DNA from: Rhina ancylostomus
Lineage: Eukaryota
Length of the DNA stretch: 64,000 nt
Assembly: GCA_030265395.1 (NCBI GenBank)
Contig: JARFYF010000058.1
Span: forward strand, 18,529,223-18,593,222
Reading direction: 5' to 3'
Shown here: piece by piece, positions 914-31,901 of the stretch
Layout of the letters: each line of letters opens with the position of its first letter
Position numbering within the stretch: the stretch's first letter is position 1
Made by a program: the position numbers and the translations under genes
The notes under the pieces: generated by a model
Seen by the model: only the letters and a program-made list of their open reading frames with translations
Told to the model about the DNA's origin: nothing
Databases searched by the model: none

Positions 914-1165
914 TCACATCATCTGGGGTCTTGGCATGGTGTCCTGGTGGGGTGGTGGGTACCATGACCCAAAACTGTTAATGTAGCTGTTTGGTGGCAT
1001 AGTGGCACCCTTATTTGCCATGGCAACGTCCCAGACTGGTGGGATATTAGGTGAACACGGAGACAAAGCAGCAGAGGTGGGCAGATGGTCACCTTCTTGC
1101 ACACTGGAGCCGTGTTTCATCAGCTTCTTGTACTTGGAGCGCTTGTTCTGAAACCAGATTTTCAC
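914..1165 (-). CDS. dlx4: Dlx4 coding exon 3 (252 nt incl. stop; [21 protein letters not shown]...[12 protein letters not shown])
   Basis: Acceptor ttttgtttcag|GTGAAA and helix 3 [27 protein letters not shown] and exon-2 EIRLNG match recalled fish Dlx4 rather than Dlx6 (SKFKK, KQGSN, SPRSP, EIRFNG). Total CDS is 747 nt = 248 aa. Confidence 0.93.
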
Positions 1166-4163
1166 CTGAAACAAAATAAAAGCATATGCATCATATTTAC
1201 TTCACTGTTTAAGCTCAAATTGATATTAAGATTATTTGATCCAAATTGGTATACAGAATACACTCTGATTAGTTATGAGTCTAAATTCATAAGTGATCCA
1301 ACTAAAAAGATCCCAATATTTCAACGTATTTGAAATAAATTTGTAAAGGAATATGACATCCACATTTTTAACGTAGATGAAGGACTGGTGTGGAATATAG
1401 AGAGGGTTTCAACATATTATAACCCTTTTCCAATAGCCTTGTCAAACCAATAATGCTTGAACATTCAGGTGGATCTACAAAGCGGCCCATCAACAAATAA
1501 TTGCAGCAATCGCATTTTGAGCCTTCCAGAGGAAAATGAAACACGTTGCATATAAAGGAATTCAAGACTTTTAAGTGTCGATATGAACAAGGAAAGAACA
1601 CATAACACTGACGGCTTTAATTCGGGTCCAGATTCTCCAGCCTACATGAGAAGCAGGCTCCTTAGCAAAACATCAAGGAGTTTGATATAAATTGTCATAT
1701 GCTCATCAACAGAAGCAAAACGCTATTTATTTTCGCTATAGCCTACAGACTTAGTGATCTTGACCAAACTGTAATTCAGTATTAAAATATAAGTGTGGAT
1801 AGTTTCGTACAGAAGTTGACATTTTTAGAAAGCTCTGTTTGCCCCCGAATTGATAAGGTTTAGCCTGAATTAAAGTTACCATTTTAGCCAAAGAGACCGG
1901 TGATAAATGGGAGATATAGTAAAAATAGCCAGTTATTTTGCAATCAGAATTGAAAATATTTCCCTCCGTCCTCTGTCCTAAAGACCTTTACAATTTGAAT
2001 TTTGAGGCGAGTTTAAACTCACCTCCTATGTTTTAGATTGAAATATAACGCTGAAATGGATTGTATTATTTACTCTCGGATCTCATCTCCATATGGAAAA
2101 TATGGAATGCTCTGGTAGATTGTATAATTTATCTCCGAAAGAAAAGGAAGAAACCTGTGAAATGCACTAAGTATTGAAATAGTATCACACATTTAGAATT
2201 TTTCACTCGGTGCTGCTATATGCCAGCAGCACAGCTTTAGATTGTTTTATTTTTGCTGGTGTGTTGAAGGGCCCCGGTCATGGAGAACTCACTTGTTCCC
2301 TGTGAGAACGCTATGTTTGTATATAATCTGTGGGATTAGACCTGAGTTTTCAAAGCCTTTTCTCTCTGAAATATGTCCCTCATTTGTCCTTTAGGTATGT
2401 TTGCATAACATTTATTTTATATCTAAGCATATTAATCAACCTCAGCATTTCCTTCTGATGGAGAAGCAGTGAATTCTTCTGGTTCGCACACAATGCCAAT
2501 GTCAATGTGAGTTCGGCTGCACAACATTCCCAATATATTTGAGCATAATCGGTTGAAACTTGAACGGTTGTTGGGATTTGAAAGATTACAGTGCCTTTTA
2601 TTAGTATTTGTATAGCCTAACTATTGTTTTCAATAAAGTTTTCTGTTGACGTTTTAAAGACTCCGAAATTAGTTAGAATATGTAATCTTTAAGACAAATA
2701 TGTCCTTATTTATATAATTCTTCAACAACTTTAGTTGGGATTAATAGACACATTTTAATTAAACAGAAAGGTGTGACGACATTAAATTATGATCAATTCT
2801 AAATATATATTTTTAAAATTAATTTTCGAATTGGAACACTTTCTCCTCGGAAAGAGCTTCGAACTTCCTTTGTAGAGATTTCCATTTTTAGAAACAAGCG
2901 CTCTGGATCTTTTCGTGAGTAACACTTGTTCAGGATGATTACTAACGTTCTCACGAACTTGAAATGCTAGTGTGGTCAATTTACTTTTAATGTGCGAATT
3001 TCGGGGAATCCTTTTCAACAGAAAGCGCCAGAAAGAGTAGAACATTAAAAGGAAAAAAATCTCGTGTAGTTTGAGCTGCGCAAGTGGGCAGCAAGTTAAA
3101 CTTACTGTTCGCTCAGAATACTTAAGAATTAATACGACCATAAAATAATTCAATAACATGAAAATAGATAAATGCATAAAATTTTGGCCATTGCTCAGAT
3201 ATTGTTGGTACTTGAATTACATTTTTTCAGAGCTTGCAGAACTTGCAAACACGAGTAAAACGTGCTTGACGATAATGGATTGGCTTACTCTGCGGCGTTG
3301 AAAAGTGTTTTCTACTGTGTGATCCGGCTACCTGTGACCTTCAGACGTGTTTCCTTCATGCACTGCACTACCAGAAATTTTGAAATATTGGAAGGTTTAT
3401 TTTTCATTACCAGCGGCCACTTTGAATTTAGTATATTTGGCAATTTAAAATTGCGGACGTTGAAAGGAAATGGCTAAATTAATGTGTCCCTACTTGGGAA
3501 ATGAAAAGGTATTGCTATGTTCTCATCGTCAAGTGAATGTTTCGTGCATCATGGTTGCACTACTCCTATTTTGTTTTAAACAGTTAATTTATAAGATTAA
3601 AAAATAAGCAATTACCGATTTACTTGGCCCTTTAATTCCTGTAATTTTAACGGATTAATAGTGGCAGATCAAATAAAAAAGATCCCATAAGGAACCGGCA
3701 AAAAGTGGCGCCACGCGAAATGATATAATTGGCCTCTGCCATTTTGTTGGACAGTGGTAGGATGCGTTAGAAAACACATTCAATTTGCATCTTTAAAGAC
3801 ACACTGAGATTAAAATAATCCGAGAAGGGAAATTCTGTTCGCATTCCTACTGAGTGTAAAAATACGGCTTTAAGTGTGGTGAGATCACACAGGAATACCA
3901 AGGGTCCCACGCCTGTTGCTGGAAGTTCTAAATCATCGTTTATGGTGATAGTTATGCAAATCCAATGCCATTTACTAAAGTGCCCAGTTCAACTACACCA
4001 AGGTGTTGAAGTTTAAAAACGAGAACTGACCCGGGTACATATGGATACGTTTTCAAGCGCGCGAGTGCGCTTTCTTACAAGAACAAAGAGACTGTATTTT
4101 CTTCTTTTTAAGTGGACCCCCATACTTTCAAGAGGGCAGAATTTGTTCTGGCCGGCACCCTAC

Positions 4164-4357
4164 CTGTGTCTGGGTGAGTCCGAGAGAGGCTGCCAATTCT
4201 GCTCTCTCCGGTAAAGCCAAATACTGCGTCTGCTGGAAGCGATGGTTCAGAGCCTGCAGCTGTAAGCTCGAATAAATGGTCCTCGGTTTTCGGATCTTTT
4301 TCCCTTTCCCGTTCAATCGGATTTCTCCATTTTCGATTACAGTCGACTTCTCGTGTT
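4164..4357 (-). CDS. dlx4: Dlx4 coding exon 2 (194 nt; [65 protein letters not shown]), homeodomain helices 1-2
   Basis: Dlx-type homeodomain. Acceptor tttccctccaag| and donor ACACAG|GTAGG. Exons 1+2 total 495 nt, so the frame is kept, and intron 2 sits at the conserved Q|VKIW position. Confidence 0.96.
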
Positions 4358-14700: not shown

Positions 14701-15426
14701 ACCTTACACATCATTCATTATGCAATTAGTTTGTGGTACTTCAACTTCTAAAGTAGAAATGAGCTATATGGATAATTATCAGTGGAGATCTCTCTCTCTC
14801 TCCACTTGCTTTGGGGTGGTCTTGAAGTTGTCTGGACATACATTCCCTGCATATCAAGTAGGACCTCTCCAATTTGCTATTTACATCCAATCTGGTAAGA
14901 TCTTCCATGTTCCTATGAACAACATGTTAGGAACAGTGGACAACAGAAAGGCATTACTGGCAAATAGAGACCCTGAGCCATTAAAGTAGGAGACTACCAT
15001 TCACAACTATTTTTGATTATGAGCTTCAACCACACTCTAGTATTGATTCTAAACTATTCAATATATGTTATTTCAATTATTAAATATTAACTGAACCATA
15101 TACAGTTATCATTTGAATCTGTAAATGTATTCTCCTCTTATCAGTCTAGGCTTTATTGCAGATAATGGTTCAATTTAATTCATTTCTTTAATTAATTCTC
15201 AGAACAAAAGATGTTCCAGGAAAATGTTCACACTGAAAATTTAAGGATATTTTGGATATGATTGATAAATTATCAAATACCATTAGAAGTTCTCTTTTTC
15301 TGTGTTGAATGTAGTTAACAGAAGACATAGTTTAGATTCAGGAATATTAACAATAATGATATTCCATCAAGTATTTCGAAGATCTTTGTTAGTTAAGTAA
15401 CTGCTAATTTAAAATTGATTCAGTAT

Positions 15427-16505: not shown

Positions 16506-17447
16506 AGCAGGAATTAATTGATTCATAGTGAATCTTGATTGTGATTTAATAAATGGCAATCTTTAGGTAAAATTTCAATAACTTAGCAGTTTAAACCTTA
16601 TGCAAGGGATTCTCTCATTTTTGGTGTGATATATTTTCATGTCTTATACAACTGAGCCAATATCATGTGAATGAAAAATCATGCAACCTCGTTTTATGGT
16701 CTTTTTGATCAGATAACAAACCTTAGAATTACAAGTTAAAAATGAATGTAAAGAAAGAAGGCAGTACTATTTGCTGATTTTAATATAAAGCCTAGCATCT
16801 AATAATGAGCAGTGGGAGAGATACCAAATGTATTTCCTATGATTTTTTTGTAGCATCACCCCAGTGATTGAGGACCCATCTTCTTTGTATGAAATCCTCT
16901 GTGCCTGTTTTGTATATTAGGATAACAAGTAAATACTTGGTGGTACCATCTGAGGTATTCGATGCATGTTGAAAATGAAACAGGTCAACTCCTTATATTG
17001 ATTCAACAAATTTTCATTTAAGCTAAGTGAGACAGAGATTCAATATAAGCAAAACAAAAATATGCATGATTTTATTTCATAAACCATGCAAGTTTGCTTC
17101 ATTGCACACTAATACATTTATGACTTGTCCAGTGAAGCACAACTAGAATTGTTTGAGTCATCATTTATCAGCCAGTTTTTGTCTTCTGATAGCTTTCACC
17201 AAATTCCTTCTGAAAGGCTATAGATTTGATTTTCAATATTTTGCTCCCCGTACTGTGAAATCATCATGACCATTTACCATCATCAGGACATTCAGGAAGA
17301 AAAGCACAATTGAAAGGATATAGGTACCTGTGTAATTCTATTTCTAATGAGGATGTTACTGAAGTTTCTAGTTTCTCCATTCATCCCACATACGAGTGAT
17401 TAAAAGTAACTACTTTTTCATATTTGCATCTGTGGGAACTTGAAGTT

Positions 17448-17900
17448 GAAGTCATAGTGACAGACTGCACAGAAGCAGGCTCTTGGGCCCACCTTGTACA
17501 TACCAACCATCAAGTATCCCTGAGGCAGGGTCTCAACCTGAAATCTCAGATATCCCTCTGCTGCCTTGGAGACAAGGGATTGCAGATGCTGCTTGACTTG
17601 CTGAGTTCTTTCAGAAGTTTGATTTTTGTTCTGGATTTCAGCATCTGCAGTTTCTTACATCTCCAAATATCCATCTATACCAATCCCATTTCCCAGCACT
17701 TGGTCTGTAGCTTCCTCTGCTTTGGCAATTCAAGTGCTCATCTGGATACTCTTTAAAGATCATGAGAGTTTCCATCATCACCACCTTTGAGGCAGTGCAT
17801 TCCAAATTCCAAAACCATCCTCTGTGTGAAAAAAAATTCTTCCTTATATCTCCTCTGAACCTTTTACTCCTTACCTTAAACCTATACCTCTGGTTATAGA
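17448..17900 (-). mobile_element. CR1-type LINE 3' end, interrupted by an insertion at ~17520-17664
   Basis: Antisense CR1 tail (agtcatag..gcacagaagcaggc..gcccacc) continuing into the ORF2 C-terminal region (accatcctctgtgtgaaaaaa..ccttaccttaaacctatacctctgg). Similar uninterrupted tails occur at 32901 and 49840. Confidence 0.75.
17520..17664 (+). mobile_element. Penelope-derived short element with degenerate hammerhead core
   Basis: CTGAGGCAGGGTCTCAACCTGAAATCTC followed by the family body cagatgctgcttgacttgctgagttc..cagcatctgcag. Flanked by the near-duplicate caagtatcc / caaatatcc. Confidence 0.7.
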
Positions 17901-20494
17901 AATTTCTGCTATGGAGGAAAGTGTACTCCTGCCAACATATTTATACCACTCAATTCTGTGCCTCTCTACTTGGTACCCATCCAAGGACTTGTTACAAATA
18001 CAATATGAACAATTATGAAGTTCATATCTTAAAAATTCATCCAATAGAAAGCTGTTGCTATGCATACCTTGCCTTCAGATTTCAACCATTGATTCTCAGA
18101 AGTTCAGCTCATGCTACTCCATTATTTGATACGAGGTAAGCAGAGAATTGAAAAGTGACAACTACTGTCCTGTGCAGTTGTGATTGGAGAAACTAGTGGA
18201 GAGGAAACAACCAGCACTTTTTACTTATCTTAGAAACCTCATCTGTTTCATTTATTTAATACCAACATAGTTTGAAAATACTGACCAGTAATTACAGAGC
18301 TACATGATTCTAGACCAGCTAAAATCTTGCATTTCTTGAGTGCACCATTTCTCTACTGACAGAATGATAGTTTGTTGTTTTACCAAAATGTGATTACATT
18401 TTTAAAGTACTTACACACTGGCTATTTTCACACTTCATTGAAAGAAACACTATATTACAATATTGATAACATGGGTAAATGGCGGAGTTGATAATTTTCA
18501 TTTCTATCATAATACAATCCTGAAATTGCAAAGAACATTAAACATGATAAAAAGACAATTATTAAAGGGATGAACACTCAATAAAACAGTAACAAATGCC
18601 AGCAAATCTGTAAAAATATGGGACATAGATTTGTGGTTCATTTAATGGCAGGGAATGTTTTGTTTGTCACTTCAGTTCACTGAATACAAAGGATGAATGA
18701 ATTTCAGGTGGAAGAAATATTTTCAATTCTCTATTATTTATTAGAAATAGAGCCTACAGAAAACATGTACATCCTTTGAAATTTCTTTAGAGGACCAAAC
18801 AGCCATCTCAACATTGGACACAGATTGCCTGCTCTCTGGATTTCCATGGTGCTAACTGTATTCTGAGCATTTTTACTTTATATAACCAAGGGACTGTTTT
18901 GTCTGGATTCCCAGAACAGATCAACCCATTTAATGAACTGTGTTCACATGACATGAATGGAACTGAGCTTTCTAATCCGTCACTGACCTCAGGAGGACCA
19001 TCATGGCACAAATCAGGTAATTTAACACGGTTAAGTAGGGAATTAAACTCTCTCAAAGCCAAATGCTTTCCTGGGTCCTTATATCCACCAGATAAAATTT
19101 GCAATCATACTGGCTGTTGTAAAACAACACTAGAAACCTCTCTGTGCTACTAATTCCTGGTAGTGAGTATACTAATACACACCAAATGAAAGATATATGC
19201 AAAAACAAGCTGAGAAAAACAAAAACATCAATTCAAATAGAAAATAATTGAAAATTCATCTGATCAAATTAATGGGATTAAGAGGAAAATTAAATACAAA
19301 TTCAACAAGGGCTAATATCAGAAATAACATCTTAAATTTATTTCGTGGAAATCATACGGTTCCATATCACAGAGTTGTAGTATTGTGAACTGTGCAAGAT
19401 TACAGTGCACTTTTAAAATGGCTGCATGTTTTAATCTCATGGTTTCTGTCAACTACAGGCTAGCTGCAGACTTTCCAATTTCGGTACATGTGGTTACTTC
19501 ACTGCCTTGGCAATTGAAACAGGTTTTGATGAATTGATTCTGCTTTGACTCAAGCTTAGTTTCTGGTTATTTATGTATGATCAAAATAAAGATTGTTTCA
19601 CATATGTGGCTCTGAGAACACAATCTGTCCCTCCCACAGAAAAACAATGGAGAACTGACATTGAGGAATGTAATTCTTCCTATTTCTAGCTCTCGATACC
19701 AGCATCAGATAAAATAAATATAGATGTTTCTTTTGCTCTGACTGAGACAAGCAATGCAGGAAAATGTAGCTGTATTGTGCCATATCAATAAGGCTATTAT
19801 TTAGAATGCATGTGGGGAGTGAGCCTTTCCATGTGTAGTAACTTCTGGAAGTAGTGAAGTGTAATAGGCAAGGACCATGGCTCAGCCTTGAGGAGCTGTT
19901 GTAAAGCAGGGCTCAGTTTTTTTTTGAGTGAGAACAAGGACAAAGGTTTTCTGAATTGCATTTTGGGATGAGAAAGATCTGAGTTAGCCTGAGCATGGAA
20001 AATGCCTCAGTGATGCAGGCCTGGAGCAGATCAGGAAAAATAAAACTACTTGAAATGAAAATGCAAGAAGGTCCATTCCAAGAATATTTCATTCCATTGT
20101 TTTCCAAAAGGAGTGGCACCTTAGTTAAACATTTTAAATTGTGATTTCCTTAAGATGCTTGAAGGATAATAGCAGATAGTGGAGAAAAGTCATCAGAAAA
20201 TTGATACCGTGCAAAACTGTGCCTACTATCTCGCCAGCAATGCAAGGATTTAGAAAAACAAGTCTCATCTATGCAAGGAAATGATTTCTGAAGTTTGGTT
20301 ACTTGGTTTTTGGGGACTGAGGAATAAAAACATGTAGCTCACTTGGGTGACAAAAATCAGTAGAGTGATGGCTTTTAATATGCATTTAAATAGGATATTT
20401 TAAATAGGACATTGATTATGTCCTTTTAATACAGGTTAATTGAGAGAAATCTTTCTTCATATTTCTGGAGAATTTATGAAAAACACTTACTTTG

Positions 20495-20590
20495 ATTCTG
20501 GAGTGTAAAAAAAAACAAACTGCTGGAAGAACAGCAGATCAGGAAGCATATGTGGAGGGAAATTTTGAGATGAGAGCTTTCAGCTGGGTT
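20495..20590 (-). mobile_element. Degenerate copy of the Penelope-derived short element
   Basis: aaacaaactgctggaagaacagcagatcaggaagcatatgtggagggaaa matches the copy at 31764. Confidence 0.6.
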
Positions 20591-20717
20591 TTGCTTTGGT
20601 TCTGGCCTAAAGAGCCTTTAAAGTTGTTATGACAGTACAGCAGTGATGATCCAGAAGCTTGGACAGTTGATTTAGAGACTCAAGTTTGAATCTCATTGTG
20701 CAGGTTGGAGGCATAAG

Positions 20718-21335
20718 GTATAGAACATAGAAATTAGAAGCAGGAGCATGCCACTCAGTCCTTCTAGTATGAACAAGAGGGAGAGAGTTCATAAGTCTGT
20801 CTTATTGGTAAACACTGAGCTGGTTCCAGATCTTCCACATCCACTCAGTCAAGATCACTCAGAAGCTTATGTTTCAATCAAGTCTTCTCTCACACTTAGA
20901 AACTTCAATGAATACAAGCCTACCTTGCCAATTCTTCCCCATAAGACTCATATTCCAGGTATTCATTTAGAAACCCTTCTCTGAACTGCTTCCAATGCAT
21001 TAACATCTTTCCTTAAATAAAGAACCAATACTGTATACAGCTTTCTAGATGCAGTCTCATCAAAGCCATTTACAATTGAGATGAGACATCTTTAGTCCAG
21101 TACTCAAATCCTCCCATAATAAGATCCAATTTACCATGTGTTTTCCTAATCACTTGCTGCAATCGAAATGTAGCTTTCAGTGACTGATATACAAGGTCAT
21201 CAACATTTCCCAGCTTCTCACCATTTAAAACAATATTCTGCTTTTCTGTTTTGTGCGCTGAAGCAGATGATCTCATATTCTTCAACATTATATTCCACCT
21301 GCTATCTTTCTGCCCACTCCTTGAGTTTATATCCT
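20718..21335 (-). mobile_element. CR1 LINE fragment (ORF2 C-terminus plus tail), decayed
   Basis: Tail atagaacatagaaattagaagcaggag. The minus-strand translation contains QQVIRKTHGKLDLIMGGFEYWTKDV, resembling CR1 KANGMLAFI..GxEYKSKDV. Confidence 0.75.
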
Positions 21336-22079
21336 CCCTACTTAATCCCACTAGCTGTCACTGCTTGTCTAGAACCTGATTATTTTCTGAGTACCCACTA
21401 AGCCAGTTCTTTCAATAGTACAGATCAGCTGAAATGAGCAGAATTGGCAAGAATTGAGGTAATTTGTGTCCACCTTATTTGTCTGGTTTGAATACTTTCT
21501 GGAGAAAAAGCCACTAAATCTAGCAAACCATTTTTTTTTAAAAAAAAGGAAATTAATTTCTTGGTGAGTATATATTTCACATTGTTTGATTTTGATTGAA
21601 ATCAGGAATGTCAGGCTATTAATACAGTTAACTAGGTATTTCAGATGGAAGTCCATTTAACTGTAAATTTTCCAGAGCTGCTCTTTGGCCATGGAGTCTA
21701 CAGAGTTTGCTGATGAACATGTCATGTGACTCAGCACTGTAAGCTGTAGTCACGTGACTGTACCTTGAGTCTGTCCCTCGCTGGGATGCTGATTTGATAG
21801 CTGTCTGCCCTAACAGTTTACTTTTTGAGGGTGATCTGTGACAAGCCCTGTGTACCACAGAGTTGACTTTGTATCATTGTAAAATGAAGCTTCTGTGAGA
21901 TGTATTATGAAATGTCACTAGTGTGCAAACTGTGCAGCTTGACTGCCCAGAGGATATTGGCTAATGCTACTTGTACAGGGTCAAACTTAAATGCAAAAAG
22001 AATACACATGAATGCAACATTGAGAACATATTTCTTGACATTTTAATGCCCTAAAATTTCTTCCTTATTATGGCTATCA

Positions 22080-22370
22080 TGAGGGGGCATCATTTTAAGG
22101 TGATTGGAGGAAGGTATAAGGGGGATGTCAGGGGGTAAGTTTTTTTTACACACAGAGAGTGGTGATTGCGTGGAACACACTGCCAGCAGAGATTGTCGGG
22201 GCAGATACTGTACATTCGGGACACTTTAAAATCCCTTAGCTAGCACTCCGTTTCTCTATCATGTGTCTATGTGGGAGGGAAGGGTTAGATAGATCTTGGA
22301 GCAAGATAAAATGTTGGCACAACATCATGGGCTGAAGGGTCTGTTCTGTGCCGTAATGTTCTAAGTTCTA
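22080..22370 (+). mobile_element. CR1 LINE 3' end
   Basis: ggggcatcattttaaggtgattgg..ttttacacacagagagtggtg..tggaac, ending gggctgaagggtctgttctgtgccgtaatgttctaagttcta. Confidence 0.8.
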
Positions 22371-23218
22371 TTCATTCCTGGATCCTTTATATAACTTCTA
22401 CCCTTTGGATGATATCTTTGCAAGTCATGTGAACTTCTGACTTTCAAGTGTAGCCCTTTCACTGGAGATTTTGCCACGACTGTAATGTCAGCAGTCTTAA
22501 GGCATCAGAGTAGAATAATAGAATCTTTCCAATGGTCACCACAAATTCCAGCTCCACGTTCCTCATCCGAAATGTCTTTCTCCCATTGGTAAACATCCTT
22601 CTCTTTTTCTGCTCGTATACATGGAGCTCATTTGCATGAAGAATTCAGCTTTACCGTCAAGAAATCCAGATGAGCTTCCTTTAAGTAAGCACCATTTCAA
22701 ATGGATTACAGTCTCCTGATCTTTCTAGATTCTAACAATCTTGTTAAAATAAACAACTGCCTAGAATTATGTGCCACTATAATTTAGAATATCTTACTTC
22801 AAAATTTGAATTTTAGTTAGAAAACGAGAAAACAAAAGCCAGAGAGCATGAAATGAGGAATAAAAAAATTAGAAAAATGCACTGTACTTGAGCCATGAAC
22901 TGCATGGCTATGGAATGGATACTAGAAGTTGGCACTAGGTTAAGAAGCCCCTTTGTGATCAAGGAAAGTTATAATGGACTAAATACCCCCTTTCTGTGTC
23001 ATAAATTTTCCATGATTCTTTGATACAAATGTTGAACGTAGCAGATAAATAACTTGTGTTGTATTCGAATCTATCATTCAGGCACTGTTAAGTTTTTATT
23101 CTAATTTTGGGTAGCTGTGGGGCTTATCCAAATTGAACCTAGTCCTCATTTCAACATAGGTAAGGTCCTGTTATGGTTTGACTTTAGATCCTTGACCTGT
23201 CCCGGGTACTACCGAATA

Positions 23219-23328
23219 TGAGAGAAACAAAGGACTGCAGATGCTGGTATCTAGATGGAAAACCCAATGATGCTGGAGGAACTCAGCAGGCCAGGCAGCA
23301 TCCGTGGAGAAAAGCAGGCGGTCAACAT
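23219..23328 (-). mobile_element. Well-preserved Penelope-derived element end, truncated by an N-gap
   Basis: gactgcagatgctgg..gatgctggaggaactcagcaggccaggcagcatccgtggagaaaagcagg, nearly the same as 57700-57755. Confidence 0.75.
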
Positions 23329-23449
23329 NNNNNNNNNNNNNNNNNNNNNNNNNNNNNNNNNNNNNNNNNNNNNNNNNNNNNNNNNNNNNNNNNNNNNNNN
23401 NNNNNNNNNNNNNNNNNNNNNNNNNNNNCTCTCATCACTCAGGTAACAG

Positions 23450-24020
23450 GCTTCCATTTCAGTTTTGCATGCAAAATGGACACATCCACATTTTCCTACA
23501 TGAGACTCCATTTACCAGATCTTCATCCACTCACTTAACTCATCTATGGTCTTTTGAAGCCTCCTTATGTCCTCTGCACAGTTTACATTCCTATCTATCT
23601 TTGTGCCATCAGCTCTGTAGCTTCATCCAAATCATTGTTGTGAATTGTACAACACTGAAGCCTCAGCACCAATCCTTGCAACACACCACTCATCACCTCT
23701 TTCCCACCAGAAAAAAACAGCTATTTATTCCCTGTTGGCCAGCCAATCTCCTATCCGTGCCAATTTGTAATGTCCAATGAGTTTTTATCTTCCCCAATAA
23801 CCTATGTTGTTGCACCATATCAAATGCCTTCTGGTAATGCAGGTATTGTTTCCATTGGTTCCTCTTTATCCACAGCACATATCATTTATTCAAAAAACTC
23901 CAATAAATTGGTGAAACACAATTTTGAATTTATAAAGCCATATTGACTTTGCCTGATTACCTTAAAAATTTCTAAGTGCACTGCAATAACTTCTTTAGTA
24001 ATAGCATCTAACATTTTAAT
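23450..24020 (-). mobile_element. CR1 LINE reverse-transcriptase fragment, decayed
   Basis: Translation YQKAFDMVQQHRLLGKIKTH resembles the RT motif DFQKAFDKVPH.RLL.K. Remnant of GVPQGSVL at ~23660-23690. Confidence 0.8.
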
Positions 24021-24164
24021 GAATTAAATAAAACAAGGGAAAAAATGTTAGTGTCAGCAACAGAGATCATGAAATGACTAGATTGTTATTAAAGACCTGT
24101 CTGGCATCCTTGTTAAAATCTGACCAATGCGTAACTCCAGATTTCCTCTCTGTTCCAGAGCTGC

Positions 24165-24228
24165 TGGACATGAACTATAAAATGCCAGGCTTGCCAGTAA
24201 CACCCACATCCCATGAACAAGTAAACAA
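24165..24228 (+). mobile_element. 3' tail of a LINE/SINE family also seen at 28140 (-) and 37141 (+)
   Basis: ataaaatgccaggcttgccagtaacacccacatcccatgaac resembles 37350-37395. Confidence 0.5.
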
Positions 24229-26189
24229 CAGAAAACCTATTAAGGTGTATGCAGGCGTGAGTTGTGAGCTGTTTCAGGCTTGAGAAGTTAGTTTTAGTAA
24301 AGTCTTTAAGCAAGTGCATTAAGACTAATGCTGTTGCAAACATGGTCTAGCATGCTAACTTTTTTTGGATGTTTGGTTCATAGTAAATGTCTATTTCCAG
24401 TTTAACACTATTTAAAAGGCCATTTAGTGTTTGACAGAATTCTAGACCTTGTTGCATGTAAATTGGATGAAATAAGTCGGATGTGAAAATGCACAATTAC
24501 TTTTAGAAGAAAAGATTACATTGTCACCTGGATATTTCTAGAAGGCTAAAAGCCAATGGTTGATTTTCTTTCCTGCAGTACCAAAAATGCAAACGCTGCT
24601 CAGAAAATATTTAAATCAGTTTTGCCTTGTTCAACATCAAGGGAAGTTGGTTTCTAAGTGAAGCTAACTGTTGTAACTGCAGACACACATTCTCCCACAG
24701 TCAAAAGTAAAGACACAAAAAATTCCTTTCAGAATGCAGTTATTAGAAATCAGTTTAATTCTGATATTAATATACATTGCTTCTTGTGTGCCTTTCTTCA
24801 ACAAACATATGTAACTATTCATGCAGAAAAAAAATCCATACAACCAGTTGTCAGCAGAATACTTGTCTTATTTTAGCCTAAGATATAATTTTAATGATAA
24901 GATATTAAATATACACACATTACAATTTGCAACATGATGCATCTAGCTCTATTACATTTCCAACCAATGTGAGTTCTGTGTACAAATTACCCACATTCAG
25001 TTAACAGTAGCAATTAGGAGAAGATTAAAACTAGATTGATTTTCAGTCAATGGAAAATTCACATATCAGCTATTCACTTAGCAAGAGTATTGCAGTCAAG
25101 TGAGCTTAAGACATACTGTTACATTAGATTTTCTTCTGTATGTAATAATATATTCAGATGTCCATGACCATTATACTTATTATTCATGGGGTTTAAATCA
25201 AAGCACTATTTGGCCCAAAACCAACTACATCAGTGAAACACAATATTAAGCAAAATCCTACCAAATAGTATATTACAGCTAACTCTGAAATATTGGCTTA
25301 GTATCACTTGTCCCAATTTAGGAACTAGCTCATTGTCTGCACACCATTGGATATGCATCTGAAAATGTTTGAAGACTGATTTCTAACCCTTCTGGGTAGA
25401 GATTTTCTTTCCTGACAGTATGTATGACATTTATAGCCCAAAAATCATGCCACACTAGCTCCAAAAAGATGTTCATTTGAAAATTTTCCCCTGCATTGTT
25501 TAATTGACAGTGCTGAATCATTTAATTTAAATGTAATAATTTTTCACTGAAATATCGGAGTGGACTTTGCGATATACACTTTAAATATCTATGCAGTAGT
25601 GGTTCTTGCAGAATGGGGCTCAGAGATTGTGCATGTTTATCTATGAAACCATTAACCAAAATAAAATCTTGTTTGATATTGATGGCAATTGCCAAAACAG
25701 AAATGATTGTACTCCAGTTGAATGGTCAGAAATTATGGGTCAAATTAAAGTTGGGGAATAAGGATAAAGGAGTAAAAGGAGCTCTTACTAAATGTGGAGC
25801 AAGTGACTGTATGGAAGATACAGAGTTAATTTCCTCATCTGTTGCTTCAAGTAAAGGGAAAGTATATTTGTGCACTCAACAGATCTGACCTTTGGTTTGC
25901 ACCAAAATGCCAAATGATATACTAAAATTTGGGAAAAGTGGAATATATTGAAAAAATATTTCTTAGAGGAGTTTACACCAAAATTCATGAATTGTAGCCT
26001 AACTGTCCATTCTGTTCTGAAATAAAGAAAAGCCATCTCCATCTACACAGGAGAATTAGTGATGAATCTGCCTCTGTCACCAGCATCCTGAGAGCAATTA
26101 ATGAAAAGCTTGTCAATCAGTATTTGTTAAGGCTGTGACAGAATGCTAAGTGATCACATGATAAAGGGACTATGTAATCCAATATTCAA

Positions 26190-26275
26190 TAGACTTTAAA
26201 AGAACTTAATTGGATGTGAAACATTTTGGAATGTCCTGAGACTGTGAAGAGGATGTCATAAATGTAACATAACTC
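26190..26275 (+). mobile_element. Old SINE 3' tail (Deu-domain, SacSINE1-like)
   Basis: aaaagaacttaattggatgtgaaacattttggaatgtcctgagactgtgaagagg..ataaatgtaac, similar to 52725-52825. Confidence 0.45.
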
Positions 26276-28256
26276 CTTATTTCCCTCTTTTGCTCTCTCT
26301 TTTGCTTTCCTAGTTGTCACCTTTTATTTTTGTCTCTCTTTCTATTTACCCTCTGTCTCTCTTTTTACTTCACTAGACTCAGGACCGTACCAGAACTCTA
26401 TAGTGCTCATCCATCACTTTTATTGGTGCGCACAGACTACCCAAAAAATTCAACCCAAAATAACTGAAAAAATATCTGCCCATTAATTCCACAGTGAAAA
26501 AGTCCTTTAGCAGTGGGGAAAAACAACAAAAAGTCTGTGAAAGTAATTTGTAAAATTTTCTAAAAGATGATGCCACCTGTCAGACATGTGGGTGTAACCA
26601 CTGAAGTTTTCATTGACTTCATCTTCCTGTGGATGAGATTCCTTATGATTGAGTTTTGCACAACATGTTAAAACAAGTTAAATCTATATTTCTAATGGAC
26701 AACAAGATCTTCAAGAAAGAAGAGAGGAAATTGTTCTCTTCTGATAAAGTTCCTCCCTTGTCCATTGGTCAAAGAATGACAAGTTACAATGATAGCTCTT
26801 ATCCTTAGCAATGAACTTTTTCAGTCCACCAAGAAAGTATTTAAAGAGTGTGGTGTTTTCATCCATTTTTAGTGCACTTTTCTTGGTTGGAGCATGCCTT
26901 GTTGAAGCATGCATTGAAACAATGGAGGAGAGAATTGGAATGTATTTGCAAGATTGTTGATGAATCAATTGTTAATAATAGACATGAATGCACAATGAGT
27001 AACATGCTCAAGTGTGGCTCATCCAGCTGTGGGATATATACGTATGTTTAAGCGTTGATAAGAGTAGAAACTACAAATGGTTTGCATCACTGATTAGGTC
27101 CTGTAGAATATTGCAGGTCAGGAGAGGGAAAAACATTCTCCTTTTAGGTGGAAGGAAATTCCCTGAATAACATAAGGTCTGGAAGTCATGGGAAGCACCA
27201 GCCTTGAGCGCAGCAGCCCTAATATTTATGGGGAAACAGGAAGGGAGAACAAGGACTGTGATGGTGGTAGAGAAACTCAGAAATTCCAGGGAAGCAGAGG
27301 TTTAGTCCAATTTAGTGACAGGCCATCATAATAATGTTTTAAAACTCAGTTTCTAACAGGGCAGCTGGCCAAATTGACAGGCTGGCCACCTGCCAGGTGG
27401 GAAAGCCAGCAACAGGATGCTACATTTCCTCCAGACAGATGCTGGCTTGAACGCTCCTTTCCATTCAGGTGCTTTGCCAGACTGGAAATCTGACAGATTC
27501 ATTCCTGCTAAGATCATGTTGACTGAATCTAACGATTGGTATGAATGTAAATGTGAGGATTGGAATTAATTTGGAATCATGCCACTGGGAAACATCAGAG
27601 CCTATTGTACAGTGGGAGCCTTGCAATTACAGGAGACTGAAGCTTGCTTGAGATCGGTGGAGTGGGTTAGACAGTTGGAGAGCTGAGCAGAAACCGTGAT
27701 CAATAGAAGGTTTGCTTGAGAGGTCAAAGGAAACATTCCTGGTCCTTCNNNNNNNNNNNNNNNNNNNNNNNNNNNNNNNNNNNNNNNNNNNNNNNNNNNN
27801 NNNNNNNNNNNNNNNNNNNNNNNNNNNNNNNNNNNNNNNNNNNNNNNNTCTGGTTCACATATATTCCCCACCCCTGTTCCCTGCTAGCTGTTCCCATCCT
27901 GCTTTAGTTCTCAGATTTACTAAGCCCTGGAAAACTGACCCCCTCCCCCCACCAAAATATTACTTTTATCTCAAGCTGCCAAATACATTGTAAAGCTTGC
28001 ATAATGTCCTAATTTGTGATATGGAAATCTGTGTAATAGGGAAGATTTTGTAATCAGTGGCAGTCATGAGTAAGTTAAGTCAATTGGCCTAGTTTCACCC
28101 AATCGATTGTTCTCAAGGTTTCCCAGCTGAGCTATCTCACTCATTCAGTTGTTTATTCATTTATGGGATGAGAATATCATGGATAGGGACAGTATTTATT
28201 TCCCATCCCTAGTAGCTCTTAAGATATTAACTTTTTGAATTGCTGCATTCATATGG

Positions 28257-28590
28257 AGACACAAGAGACTGCAAATGCTTGAAGCTGGAGTTAAAAAACA
28301 AATGACTAGAGAAACTCAGCAGATCGGGCTGCATCTGTGGAGCCAAAGGGTTGGTTGACAATTTGGGTCAAGAGCCTGCATCAAAACTTCATATTTGCAT
28401 CCATGGGAACTATCCATGGGAGCCAGAATCACAGAGACATACTGCATAGAAACAGGCCATTTGACCCACCCTGTCTGTGCCAACCATCAAGTATTCTTGA
28501 TGCAGGGTCTTGACCCAAAATGTCGACCATCCCTCTGCCTTCACAGATGCCACCTGACCTGCTGAGCTCCTCCAGCATTTTGTTTTCTGT
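28257..28590. mobile_element. Composite insertion: Penelope-derived element (-, ~28257-28385), ~110 bp filler, then element (+, 28497-28590), inserted in an older LINE tail
   Basis: Inverted copies with cores TTGATGCAGG(C/G)TCTTGACCCAAA. The host antisense tail (28140-28256) appears to resume at ggtgaatgta after 28590, with tgg at both junctions. Confidence 0.75.
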
Positions 28591-28844
28591 TGGTGAATGT
28601 ATTGCCGTTGCTTCTTGTGAACATTTTGCCCCAACAAAAAAAAGATTATTTTGGAGATTCTATGGGTTCACCAAAAAGATTGGCTGAAGCAAAGATTTTG
28701 AATTTCTAGATATTTGAGCACCAAGAGACCTATCGTCACAGAATGCATGTCAATGCTTATGTTGTTATTGTGTGCGGTTGACTTCAGTGGGGAAGACCAT
28801 GTCAAAGTGGTGGAAGCAGTGGTGCTACAGAGGGTGGCAGTGGA

Positions 28845-29895
28845 AGCTGTTATTCTGGCTGAAGGTCCATGACCATTGGTGTTCTGCAGGGATCAGCACT
28901 GGGACCTCTGTTCTTTATGATATATATAAGTGACTTGAACAAAAATGTAAATTTGCAGATGACACAAGGATTGGTAGAGATGTGGACAGTGAAGACGGCT
29001 GTCAAAGGATATGGGCGGAGAAGTGGCAGATGGAGTTTAATCTGAGCAAGTGTGAGGGAGTCACTTTGACAGTCAGTCACTTTGGGAGGTCAAATGTAAG
29101 TGGAAAGTGTACAGTTAATGGCAGGACCCTTAACAGCATTAATGTACAGAGGGATTTTGGGGTCCAAGTCCGTAGCTCCCTGAAAATGGCCAGACAAGTA
29201 GATAGGGTGGTAAATAAGGCATATGGCATGCTTGCCTTCATTGGTCGGGACATTGAGTATAAGGGTAAGGAAGTCATGTTGCAGCTATATAAAACTTAGA
29301 TTAGGCCACACTTGAGATATTGTGTGCAATTCTGGTCGTCCCATTACAGGAAGGATTTGGAAGCTTTGGAAAGGGTACAGAAAAAGTTTTCCAGGATGCT
29401 GCTGGGTTAGAGGTTATGAGCTATAGGAGAGGTTGGACCCCAAGATCCCTCTGTACATTAATGTTGTTAAAGGTCTTGCCATTAACTGAGATTGGGTTGT
29501 TTTCTCTGGCACATTGGAGGCTGAAGAAGTTTATGACATTATGAGAGGCATAGATAGGGTAGACAGTCAGAATCTTTATTCCAGAATAGAAATGTCAAAT
29601 ACTAGAGGACATGCATTTAAGGTGAGAAAGGGAAAGTTTATGAGACATGTATGGGGTAAGTTTTTTTTTACAGAGTGGTAGGTGTATAGAATATGTTGCC
29701 AGGGATAGTGGTGGAAGCAGATACGGTAGTGGCATTTGAGAGGATTTTAGATAGACACATAAATATTACAGGGAATAGATGATATAGAACATGTGCAGCC
29801 AGAAGAGATTTAGTTTAATTTGTCATTGTGTTTGGCACAGAAAGTGCGGGCTGAAGCACCTATTCCTGTGCTGTACTGTTCTATGTTCCATGTTC
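28845..29895 (+). mobile_element. 5'-truncated CR1 LINE (~1 kb, RT to tail)
   Basis: GVLQGSALGPLFF..IYISDL, FADDT, WAEKWQMEFNLSKCE, KAYGMLAFIGRDIEYKGKEVMLQLYKT; tail gtgctgtactgttctatgttccatgttc. Contains stops and frameshifts. Confidence 0.92.
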
Positions 29896-31763: not shown

Positions 31764-31901
31764 AAGAAAAAAAACAAACTGCTGGAGGAACTCAGCAGGT
31801 CAGGCAGCATCTGTGGAGGGAAATGGACAGTTAACTTTACATCTGATCTGATAAGTTCTTTTTTGCTCCAGCTTCCAGCATCTGTAGTCTTTTGTGTTTC
31901 C
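31764..31901. mobile_element. Internally deleted head-to-head pair of the Penelope-derived element
   Basis: Minus arm aaacaaactgctggaggaactcagcaggtcaggcagcatctgtggaggg joined to the plus-strand end ttgctccagcttccagcatctgtagtc. Confidence 0.75.

What the first reader, a model, noticed from the sequence alone, without database searches (positions are those of the whole stretch)
17417..28590. Candidate local transduction: the hammerhead-element insertion at 28.3 kb carries flanking DNA from a donor locus at 17.4 kb
Seen in sequence: 17417-~17630 and 28388-28590 share the same three-part order. First a non-repeat-looking 24-mer ttcatatttgcatc(tg/ca)tgggaact, then an antisense CR1 tail ending ccaaccatcaagtat, then the hammerhead element starting at the same base. 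At 17.4 kb the CR1 continues after the element with an apparent target duplication (caagtatcc/caaatatcc), so it looks like the original insertion site. At 28.4 kb the block sits inside a head-to-head pair inserted in a different LINE tail, and the CR1 does not continue. Differences are complementary CpG decays (ctgtg/ccatg from CCGTG; tctcaacctg/tcttgaccca from TCTCGACCCG), implying a common ancestor. Inference: a Penelope-type retrotransposition or templated repair event copied ~130 bp of upstream flank 11 kb away. The moved 24-mer contains an octamer (ATTTGCAT) and an ancestral RBPJ-type CGTGGGAA, so regulatory motifs may have been duplicated upstream of dlx4.
Basis: partly seen in the sequence, partly recalled or inferred. 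Interest (0 to 1): 0.7.

Follow-up and report, generated by a model that had tools for sequence, protein, structure and literature searches.

The report
Nearby DNA patched into Penelope insertion
About 110 bases of DNA occur only twice in this genome, 11 kb apart, and the second copy sits between the two back-to-back arms of what is likely a Penelope jumping-gene insertion, most likely because DNA repair copied it from the neighbouring site to close the gap between the arms; it is old and probably has no function.

Summary
The 24-mer and the LINE|element junction each occur at only these two places in the 2.2-Gb genome. Both loci are also in contigs of three other organisms, so this is neither misassembly nor a dispersed chimeric family. 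17.4 kb is the donor. The 28.3-kb structure has the family's normal form: one arm with the 3' tail, one without, head to head (30 of 32 pairs in 864 kb). Its right arm resembles the left arm, not the donor, so probably only the ~110-bp flank was copied. Five other joints hold filler from DNA 0.6-1.4 kb away (one weak), four with no element beside the donor; a further pair shares filler over 10 kb. Similar short local duplications are common here without any element (19 in 864 kb). Best reading: a repair-mediated (SDSA-type) duplication at the central joint of a twin-primed Penelope insertion, guided by homology to the nearby copy (0.6). RNA 5' transduction is second (0.2). The copied motifs are not conserved at the new site.

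The parts
17408..17440 (+). Donor: single-copy flank, including the 24-mer (17417-17440); the copied tract starts at about 17408-17410
   Evidence: extension upstream of 17417 from the 7 extra letters in organisms D and F
17441..17519 (-). Donor: 3' tail of a dispersed LINE-type repeat (CR1 label recalled, not tested), left part; ends in the left copy of a 9-nt target duplication (17511-17519)
17518..17664 (+). Donor: solo hammerhead-bearing Penelope-type terminal repeat with 3' tail (profile positions 5-136)
17567..17582 (.). 16-nt insert in the donor element, resembling the element's own 3' end reversed; present in D and F, absent from the 28.5-kb arm
   Evidence: records 18 and 25 cross it without gaps
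17664..17790 (-). Donor: LINE-type tail resumes after the element; begins with the right copy of the target duplication (17664-17672)
28140..28253 (.). Recipient left flank: a different dispersed LINE-type tail; its last 7 nt recur at the start of the filler
28254..28388 (-). Recipient left arm: element with 3' tail (profile 3-136)
28388..28494 (+). Filler at the head-to-head joint: copy of the donor flank (24-mer plus LINE tail), 76% identical to the donor; 7 nt longer in D and F
28495..28589 (+). Recipient right arm: element without tail (profile 5-99)

Best explanation
The 110-bp block at 28.4 kb is a copy of the flank of the element at 17.5 kb, most likely written in by DNA repair when the two arms of a probable Penelope insertion were joined, and likely without function. 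Steps. (1) Inferred: a Penelope endonuclease cut the 28.25-kb site and both DNA ends primed reverse transcription on the element's RNA, the left end at the tail and the right end at the internal start about 35 nt upstream. The tailed-plus-tailless, head-to-head product is shown. (2) Inferred: both cDNAs ran off near the hammerhead, leaving two 3' flaps. Normally these join with 14 nt or less between them (28 of 32 pairs, shown). (3) Inferred: here the right cDNA paired with the similar element 11 kb away over up to ~95 nt, was extended about 110 nt into that copy's flank, came off, and joined the left cDNA by about 3 nt of microhomology (synthesis-dependent strand annealing). The mirror route, in which the left cDNA jumps by microhomology and is caught by the right cDNA inside the donor element, gives the same product. 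(4) Shown: the donor was left intact and both copies have since diverged by about 24%.
For: Unique two-copy state. Family geometry: 30 of 32 unselected pairs and 83 of 96 pairs overall have one tailed and one tailless arm, matching the two reverse-transcription start sites and cutting of both strands reported for an anole Penelope protein (PMC11167929). Right arm vs left arm scores 2.9, reached by 1.2% of random same-class pairs; right arm vs donor scores -1.9, reached by 59%. The donor's 16-nt insert is missing from the right arm. In D and F the donor match runs up to the left arm's 5' end. Other joints: of 40 hand-picked spacers, 23 had any hit and 8 had their best hit within their own 10 kb (binomial p 5e-8). 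Two of the 8 are set aside (L165 element sequence, L120 its own flank); that leaves L130, L132, L136, L147, L148 and weak L151. L136, L147, L148 have a 14-17-nt target duplication around the whole pair, so their filler is inserted. L132, L136, L147, L148 have donors with no element beside them, on either strand and side; L132 is a patchwork of two donors. L130 repeats the architecture of this finding at 0.9 kb. L123 and L124 share a 39-nt filler found nowhere else, 10 kb apart, with tails on opposite sides. Size, distance and chimeric donors match repair-mediated duplications (PMC2671141).
Against: No target duplication around the 28.3-kb pair, so one event is inferred, not proven. The last 7 nt of the left flank recur at the filler start, which could be the target duplication of a separate left-arm insertion. 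The arm-similarity test is weak: calibrated on 6 pairs, falls to 1.2 vs -1.7 without one site, and later gene conversion between inverted arms could mimic it. 11 kb is outside the usual range (19 local duplications within 5 kb, only this one at 5-15 kb). In unselected sequence this finding is the only such joint among 32 pairs. Five unique-looking fillers had no convincing donor within 25 kb and one has a partial match on another contig. No intact Penelope ORF was seen; the upstream endonuclease-like frame gave no Pfam match, only an Atlas lead (0.92, GIY-YIG on 11-21% of members). DNA versus nascent-RNA template cannot be read directly from sequence.
Confidence: 0.6

Rival explanations
1. RNA 5' transduction: a plus-strand read-through transcript of the 17.4-kb locus was bound by the Penelope protein, reverse-transcribed from the internal start site through the element into the upstream flank, and inserted 11 kb away as the second arm of a twin-primed event.
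For: The right end falls in the family's tailless zone (profile 99). Flank and arm are contiguous exactly as at the donor. Unprocessed RNA is the main template in vitro (PMC11167929). Penelope elements can move host DNA between terminal repeats (PMC3846280). L123/L124 and L130 can also be drawn this way.
Against: The right arm is no closer to the donor (72%) than random subfamily copies are, and scores with the left arm. The donor's 16-nt insert is absent. Four other local donors have no element sequence to recruit the protein and lie on both strands. Similar duplications occur without the element.
Confidence: 0.2
2. Two steps: an ordinary repair-mediated duplication first copied flank plus part of the element to 28.4 kb, primed by 7 nt of microhomology; a separate solo element later inserted at its left edge and duplicated those 7 nt.
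For: The 7-mer lies on both sides of the left arm. Background local duplications occur about once per 45 kb, and one of them also carries part of an element (window-relative -122384 / -120789). No target duplication spans the pair.
Against: Needs the break to end in the tailless zone, the second insertion to hit the junction exactly and in head-to-head orientation, and the arms to resemble each other by chance. In D and F 7 donor-like letters separate the arm from the 7-mer. Target duplications found for this family were 11-20 nt, and 9 at the donor.
Confidence: 0.12
3. Late repair of a palindrome: a normal head-to-head pair formed first, later broke at its centre as a hairpin or cruciform, and was repaired from the 17.5-kb copy.
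For: Gives the same final structure and explains arm-to-arm similarity. Pairs fold as long hairpins.
Against: Donor and copy differ by about 24% while the arms differ by 21%, so the filler is not visibly younger than the insertion; both arms reach profile positions 3-5, so little was resected.
Confidence: 0.08

Closest known systems
Repair-mediated duplication by SDSA (Pace, Sen, Batzer, Feschotte 2009, PMC2671141; parts 1-3 of 8 read)
   Same: Two-copy, non-tandem local duplication of 50-600 bp; donor intact; microhomology; chimeric donors (L132); no poly(A). The background distances here (13 of 19 under 2 kb) resemble the reported peak near 1.2 kb.
   Different: The acceptor is the central joint of a retrotransposon insertion, not an old break inside an element; the donor is 11 kb away, beyond their 5-kb class; template choice appears guided by homology to a neighbouring element copy.
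Inverted-pLTR insertions of Penelope-like elements with an optional 30-40-nt tail (PMC8557442 passages; PMC11167929 parts 1-2 of 4; PMC3846280 parts 2-3 of 5)
   Same: 5'-truncated inverted copy next to the main copy; tail at one end only; hammerhead motif in the terminal repeat; endonuclease-like frame upstream; unrelated DNA captured between terminal repeats is noted for Adineta vaga.
   Different: In what I read, the inverted copy is immediately adjacent and captured spacers have no identified local donor. Here the filler is traced to DNA 0.6-11 kb away.
L1 twin priming and templated insertions (bioRxiv 10.1101/2024.08.27.596794 and PMC11702581, passages)
   Same: Both DNA ends prime cDNA; the cDNAs join by microhomology; non-element templates under 250 bp are copied in, proposed to be SDSA-like.
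   Different: Reported L1 templates are typically within 15 bp of the site; here 0.6-11 kb. The second priming site here is stereotyped, and the arms overlap over their whole length.

Membership tests
Repair-mediated duplication (SDSA) | Sequence present at exactly two loci, donor intact | tested here: met
Repair-mediated duplication (SDSA) | Insert 50-619 bp, non-tandem, same chromosome | tested here: met
   about 110 bp (up to 210 with the arm), 11 kb apart
Repair-mediated duplication (SDSA) | Donor within 5 kb (the paper's confident class) | tested here: not met
   10,971 bp; it falls in the paper's 'distant' class, which cannot be filed with confidence
Repair-mediated duplication (SDSA) | Microhomology, filler or deletion at breakpoints; no poly(A/T) tail | tested here: inconclusive
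   about 3 nt shared at the left joint, visible only through D and F; no poly(A); no empty site available
Repair-mediated duplication (SDSA) | Empty orthologous site in an outgroup | tested here: inconclusive
   all 4 of 4 runs laid hold the filled site; no deeper outgroup was laid
Penelope-like element inverted insertion | Head-to-head arms, tail on one arm only | tested here: met
   profile 3-136 and 5-99; 30 of 32 unselected pairs alike
Penelope-like element inverted insertion | Hammerhead motif in the terminal repeat | tested here: inconclusive
   core motif and stems I and II in the consensus; no Rfam hammerhead match; cores of the window's copies are mutated; cleavage untested
Penelope-like element inverted insertion | Linked RT plus GIY-YIG ORF | tested here: inconclusive
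   decayed endonuclease-like frames 228-254 nt upstream of same-strand repeats in L073, L109, L128; Pfam none; PDB none; Atlas GIY-YIG lead 0.92; RT not looked for
Penelope-like element inverted insertion | Target-site duplication around the unit | tested here: not met
   none at 28.3 kb; found at 17 of the 33 other intervals tested, one offset from the end
RNA-mediated 5' transduction | Element part and flank both descend from the source copy | tested here: not met
   right arm scores with the left arm, not the donor; weak test
RNA-mediated 5' transduction | Read-through transcript of the source locus | not testable with these tools
   no suitable RNA data
Dispersed chimeric repeat family | Same composite at many loci | tested here: not met
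   2 matches only; none of the 39 other scored hits covers the 24-mer

The most novel reading that the evidence does not exclude
Penelope twin priming leaves two long cDNA flaps that the element cannot join by itself; host strand-invasion repair closes the joint and regularly copies in nearby DNA, and an older copy of the same element acts as a homing beacon that stretches the reach from about 1 kb to 10 kb or more. With tens of thousands of such pairs per genome, Penelope elements would be a steady source of short local duplications, and the fillers a fossil record of the unsolved last step of Penelope integration.
Probability: 0.4. Interest if true: 0.6.

Novelty: new variant of a known kind. 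Interest (0 to 1): 0.36.

Why it matters
How Penelope-like elements finish integration after reverse transcription is still open (PMC11167929 says the later steps are not validated). These fillers suggest the head-to-head joint is closed by repair that can use nearby DNA, and they give testable predictions: donor distance, strand independence, dependence on a neighbouring copy. They also link two known processes, Penelope inverted insertion and repair-mediated duplication. The locus itself looks neutral; there is no sign of an effect on the Dlx gene 13-24 kb away.

Tried and rejected
Chimeric repeat family: rejected. Misassembly: rejected; contigs of the own organism match with no differences across 27945-28443, 28554-28875 and 17150-17612, and contigs of B, D and F cross the junctions; no single contig spans the whole insertion. 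Regulatory duplication: not supported. Rfam found no hammerhead; only below-threshold microRNA-shaped hairpins. Sequencing runs: no RNA holder listed; no evidence either way. Defining the pre-insertion LINE at 28.25 kb failed: too few copies for a usable consensus. A strict endonuclease motif scan found nothing. L152 and L155 spacers had no donor in genome searches and are probably native DNA between independent insertions, since the target duplication flanks only the right unit. L126 is a repeat. Extending L127, L135, L149, L158, L159 to 25 kb each side gave nothing above controls. A possible second case in the window (31836-31860 vs 14880-14904, 21 of 25, E 0.029) is not significant over the spacers tried. 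Literature: searches showed no paper tracing filler at Penelope joints to local donors; only open-access text is searched, and no supplements were read.

Full report
Observation. The two stretches align as described: 24-mer, LINE-type tail, hammerhead-bearing repeat, in the same order and register. The 24-mer and the junction pattern each match twice in 2.2 Gb with up to two mismatches, with no control matches. A DNA search with 28385-28500 scored 40 of 366 candidates; apart from the query itself all cover only the LINE tail, and the donor was not among those scored. The window is G000:C58:18529223-18593222. Homeodomain exons lie on the minus strand at 4292 and 1156 and on the plus strand 10-11.5 kb before the window; the names Dlx4 and Dlx3 are recalled, not tested.

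Not an artefact, and old. Contigs of organism A match both loci without differences; contigs of B, D and F cross the filler junction and the donor. F differs from the window at 37 of 561 donor-side and 22 of 241 recipient-side positions, whereas donor and copy differ at 24 of 102 non-element positions. The duplication is therefore roughly three times older than that split (inference). D and F carry 7 more letters behind 28387 that match the donor at 5 of 7, so the copied tract abuts the left arm with about 3 nt of microhomology.

The element. Twenty-nine genomic copies give a 137-position profile with a sharp 3' end and a 5' edge at the hammerhead motif. Decayed endonuclease-like frames lie just upstream of same-strand copies in three loci. 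Pfam and PDB do not match them; the Atlas gives GIY-YIG clusters at 0.92, a lead only. In 864 kb of unselected sequence there are 164 profile hits and 32 head-to-head pairs; 30 of 32 have one tailed and one tailless arm and 28 of 32 have 14 nt or less at the joint. Over all fetched sequence at that stage 83 of 96 pairs were so, and arms agree at subfamily sites more than random copies. This fits the inverted copy and one-sided 30-40-nt tail of Penelope-like elements (PMC8557442, passages) and the two start sites with cutting and extension of both strands in vitro (PMC11167929, parts 1-2 of 4). Earlier scan notes describe the same geometry in other genomes; they are not independent evidence. 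The 28.3-kb pair is typical except for its 106-nt filler and the lack of a target duplication.

Which parts came from the donor. Right arm vs left arm 79%, right arm vs donor 72%, left arm vs donor 65% (the donor's 16-nt insert was left out). A frequency-weighted score gives 2.9 for the two arms (1.2% of random pairs reach it) and -1.9 for right arm vs donor; without one site, 1.2 and -1.7 (calibrated on 6 pairs). This suggests both arms came from one RNA source and only the flank from the donor. It is modest evidence.

Other joints. A strict pattern found 112 pairs with 35-250 nt between arms, 50 listed; a second pattern gave 67 rows. I picked 40 loci whose spacers did not look like element sequence: 19, 20, 1. 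Against all 40 masked 10-kb loci, 23 spacers had a hit and 8 had their best hit in their own locus (p 5e-8). Setting aside L165 and L120 leaves L130, L132, L136, L147, L148 and weak L151; 17 had no hit and 15 hit other loci best, mostly repeats. Donors lie 0.6-1.4 kb away, left or right, on either strand, 73-89% identical. L136, L147 and L148 have target duplications around the whole pair; L130, L132, L123 and L151 do not. L132 joins two donors; L147 has fold-back ends. L130 copies a tailed solo element with its upstream flank, as here. L123 and L124, 10 kb apart, share a filler unique in the genome and have tails on opposite sides. One filler has a partial match on another contig; five had no donor within 25 kb.

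Background. The 864 kb hold 48 two-copy similarities: 19 within 5 kb, 1 at 5-15 kb (this finding), 28 further off, which include the Dlx paralogues and probably low-copy repeats. Two of the 19 touch an element's 5' end and none sits between two arms. So short local duplication is a general habit of this genome and matches repair-mediated duplication as described in mammals, chicken and zebrafish (PMC2671141, parts 1-3 of 8). A rough estimate, about 17 events per 864 kb against 20 nt per joint and about 900 strict-pattern pairs, expects about 0.4 filled joints by chance against at least 4 found; this tenfold excess rests on an extrapolated denominator and is inference.

Mechanism. Most likely (0.6) a twin-primed Penelope insertion whose central joint was closed by strand invasion into the similar element 11 kb away, copying about 110 nt of its flank. 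Rivals: RNA 5' transduction (0.2), ordinary duplication plus a later solo insertion (0.12; a 7-mer flanks the left arm on both sides), late repair of the palindrome (0.08). L1 work reports twin priming and SDSA-like templated inserts, but typically from within 15 bp (bioRxiv 10.1101/2024.08.27.596794, passages; PMC11702581, passages). Adineta Penelope elements capture host DNA between terminal repeats (PMC3846280, parts 2-3 of 5). A retrozyme preprint was checked by passages and does not treat joints.

Function. The RBPJ-type site is broken at the new site in the window and changed further in D and F; the octamer is broken there in F. Nothing suggests a regulatory role.

Verdict. Real, local and old; a new variant of known processes. 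The single locus is of small interest; the recurring pattern is a usable clue to the last step of Penelope integration.

Noticed in passing
G000:C58:18129223-18993222 (864 kb around the window): 19 short two-copy local duplications (50-341 bp, 0.5-3.6 kb apart, 70-96% identical), mostly away from the element: a high density of apparent repair-mediated duplications, about one per 45 kb.
   Followed up: partly
L123:4660-4933 and L124:4882-5155: Two head-to-head pairs 10 kb apart share a 39-nt filler unique in the genome, in the same orientation, but carry the tail on opposite arms and have unrelated flanks.
   Followed up: partly
window 17567-17582: A 16-nt insert in the donor element resembles the reversed 3' end of the element and extends its internal hairpin; shared with organisms D and F.
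   Followed up: partly
L125:5105-5178 vs L141:1501-1575: Filler in a pair with a target duplication matches 75 nt on another contig at 88%, with no element seen beside it: a possible distant template.
   Followed up: partly
L133, L150, L153, L161, L166 spacers: A recurring related spacer follows reversed tail sequence in several pairs; probably element sequence downstream of the tail.
   Followed up: no
L132:4682-4949: Four or five tandem copies of the ~38-nt hammerhead core at the head of the left arm.
   Followed up: no
window 31769-31901 vs 14880-14904: A pair with a 14-nt target duplication whose short filler matches a site 17 kb away at 21 of 25; not significant.
   Followed up: yes
window 28399-28421: A 10-nt direct repeat inside the filler, absent from the donor; arose after or during the copy.
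   Followed up: no
window 1156-4315 (-) and 10-11.5 kb before the window (+): Tail-to-tail pair of Dlx-type homeobox genes.
   Followed up: partly
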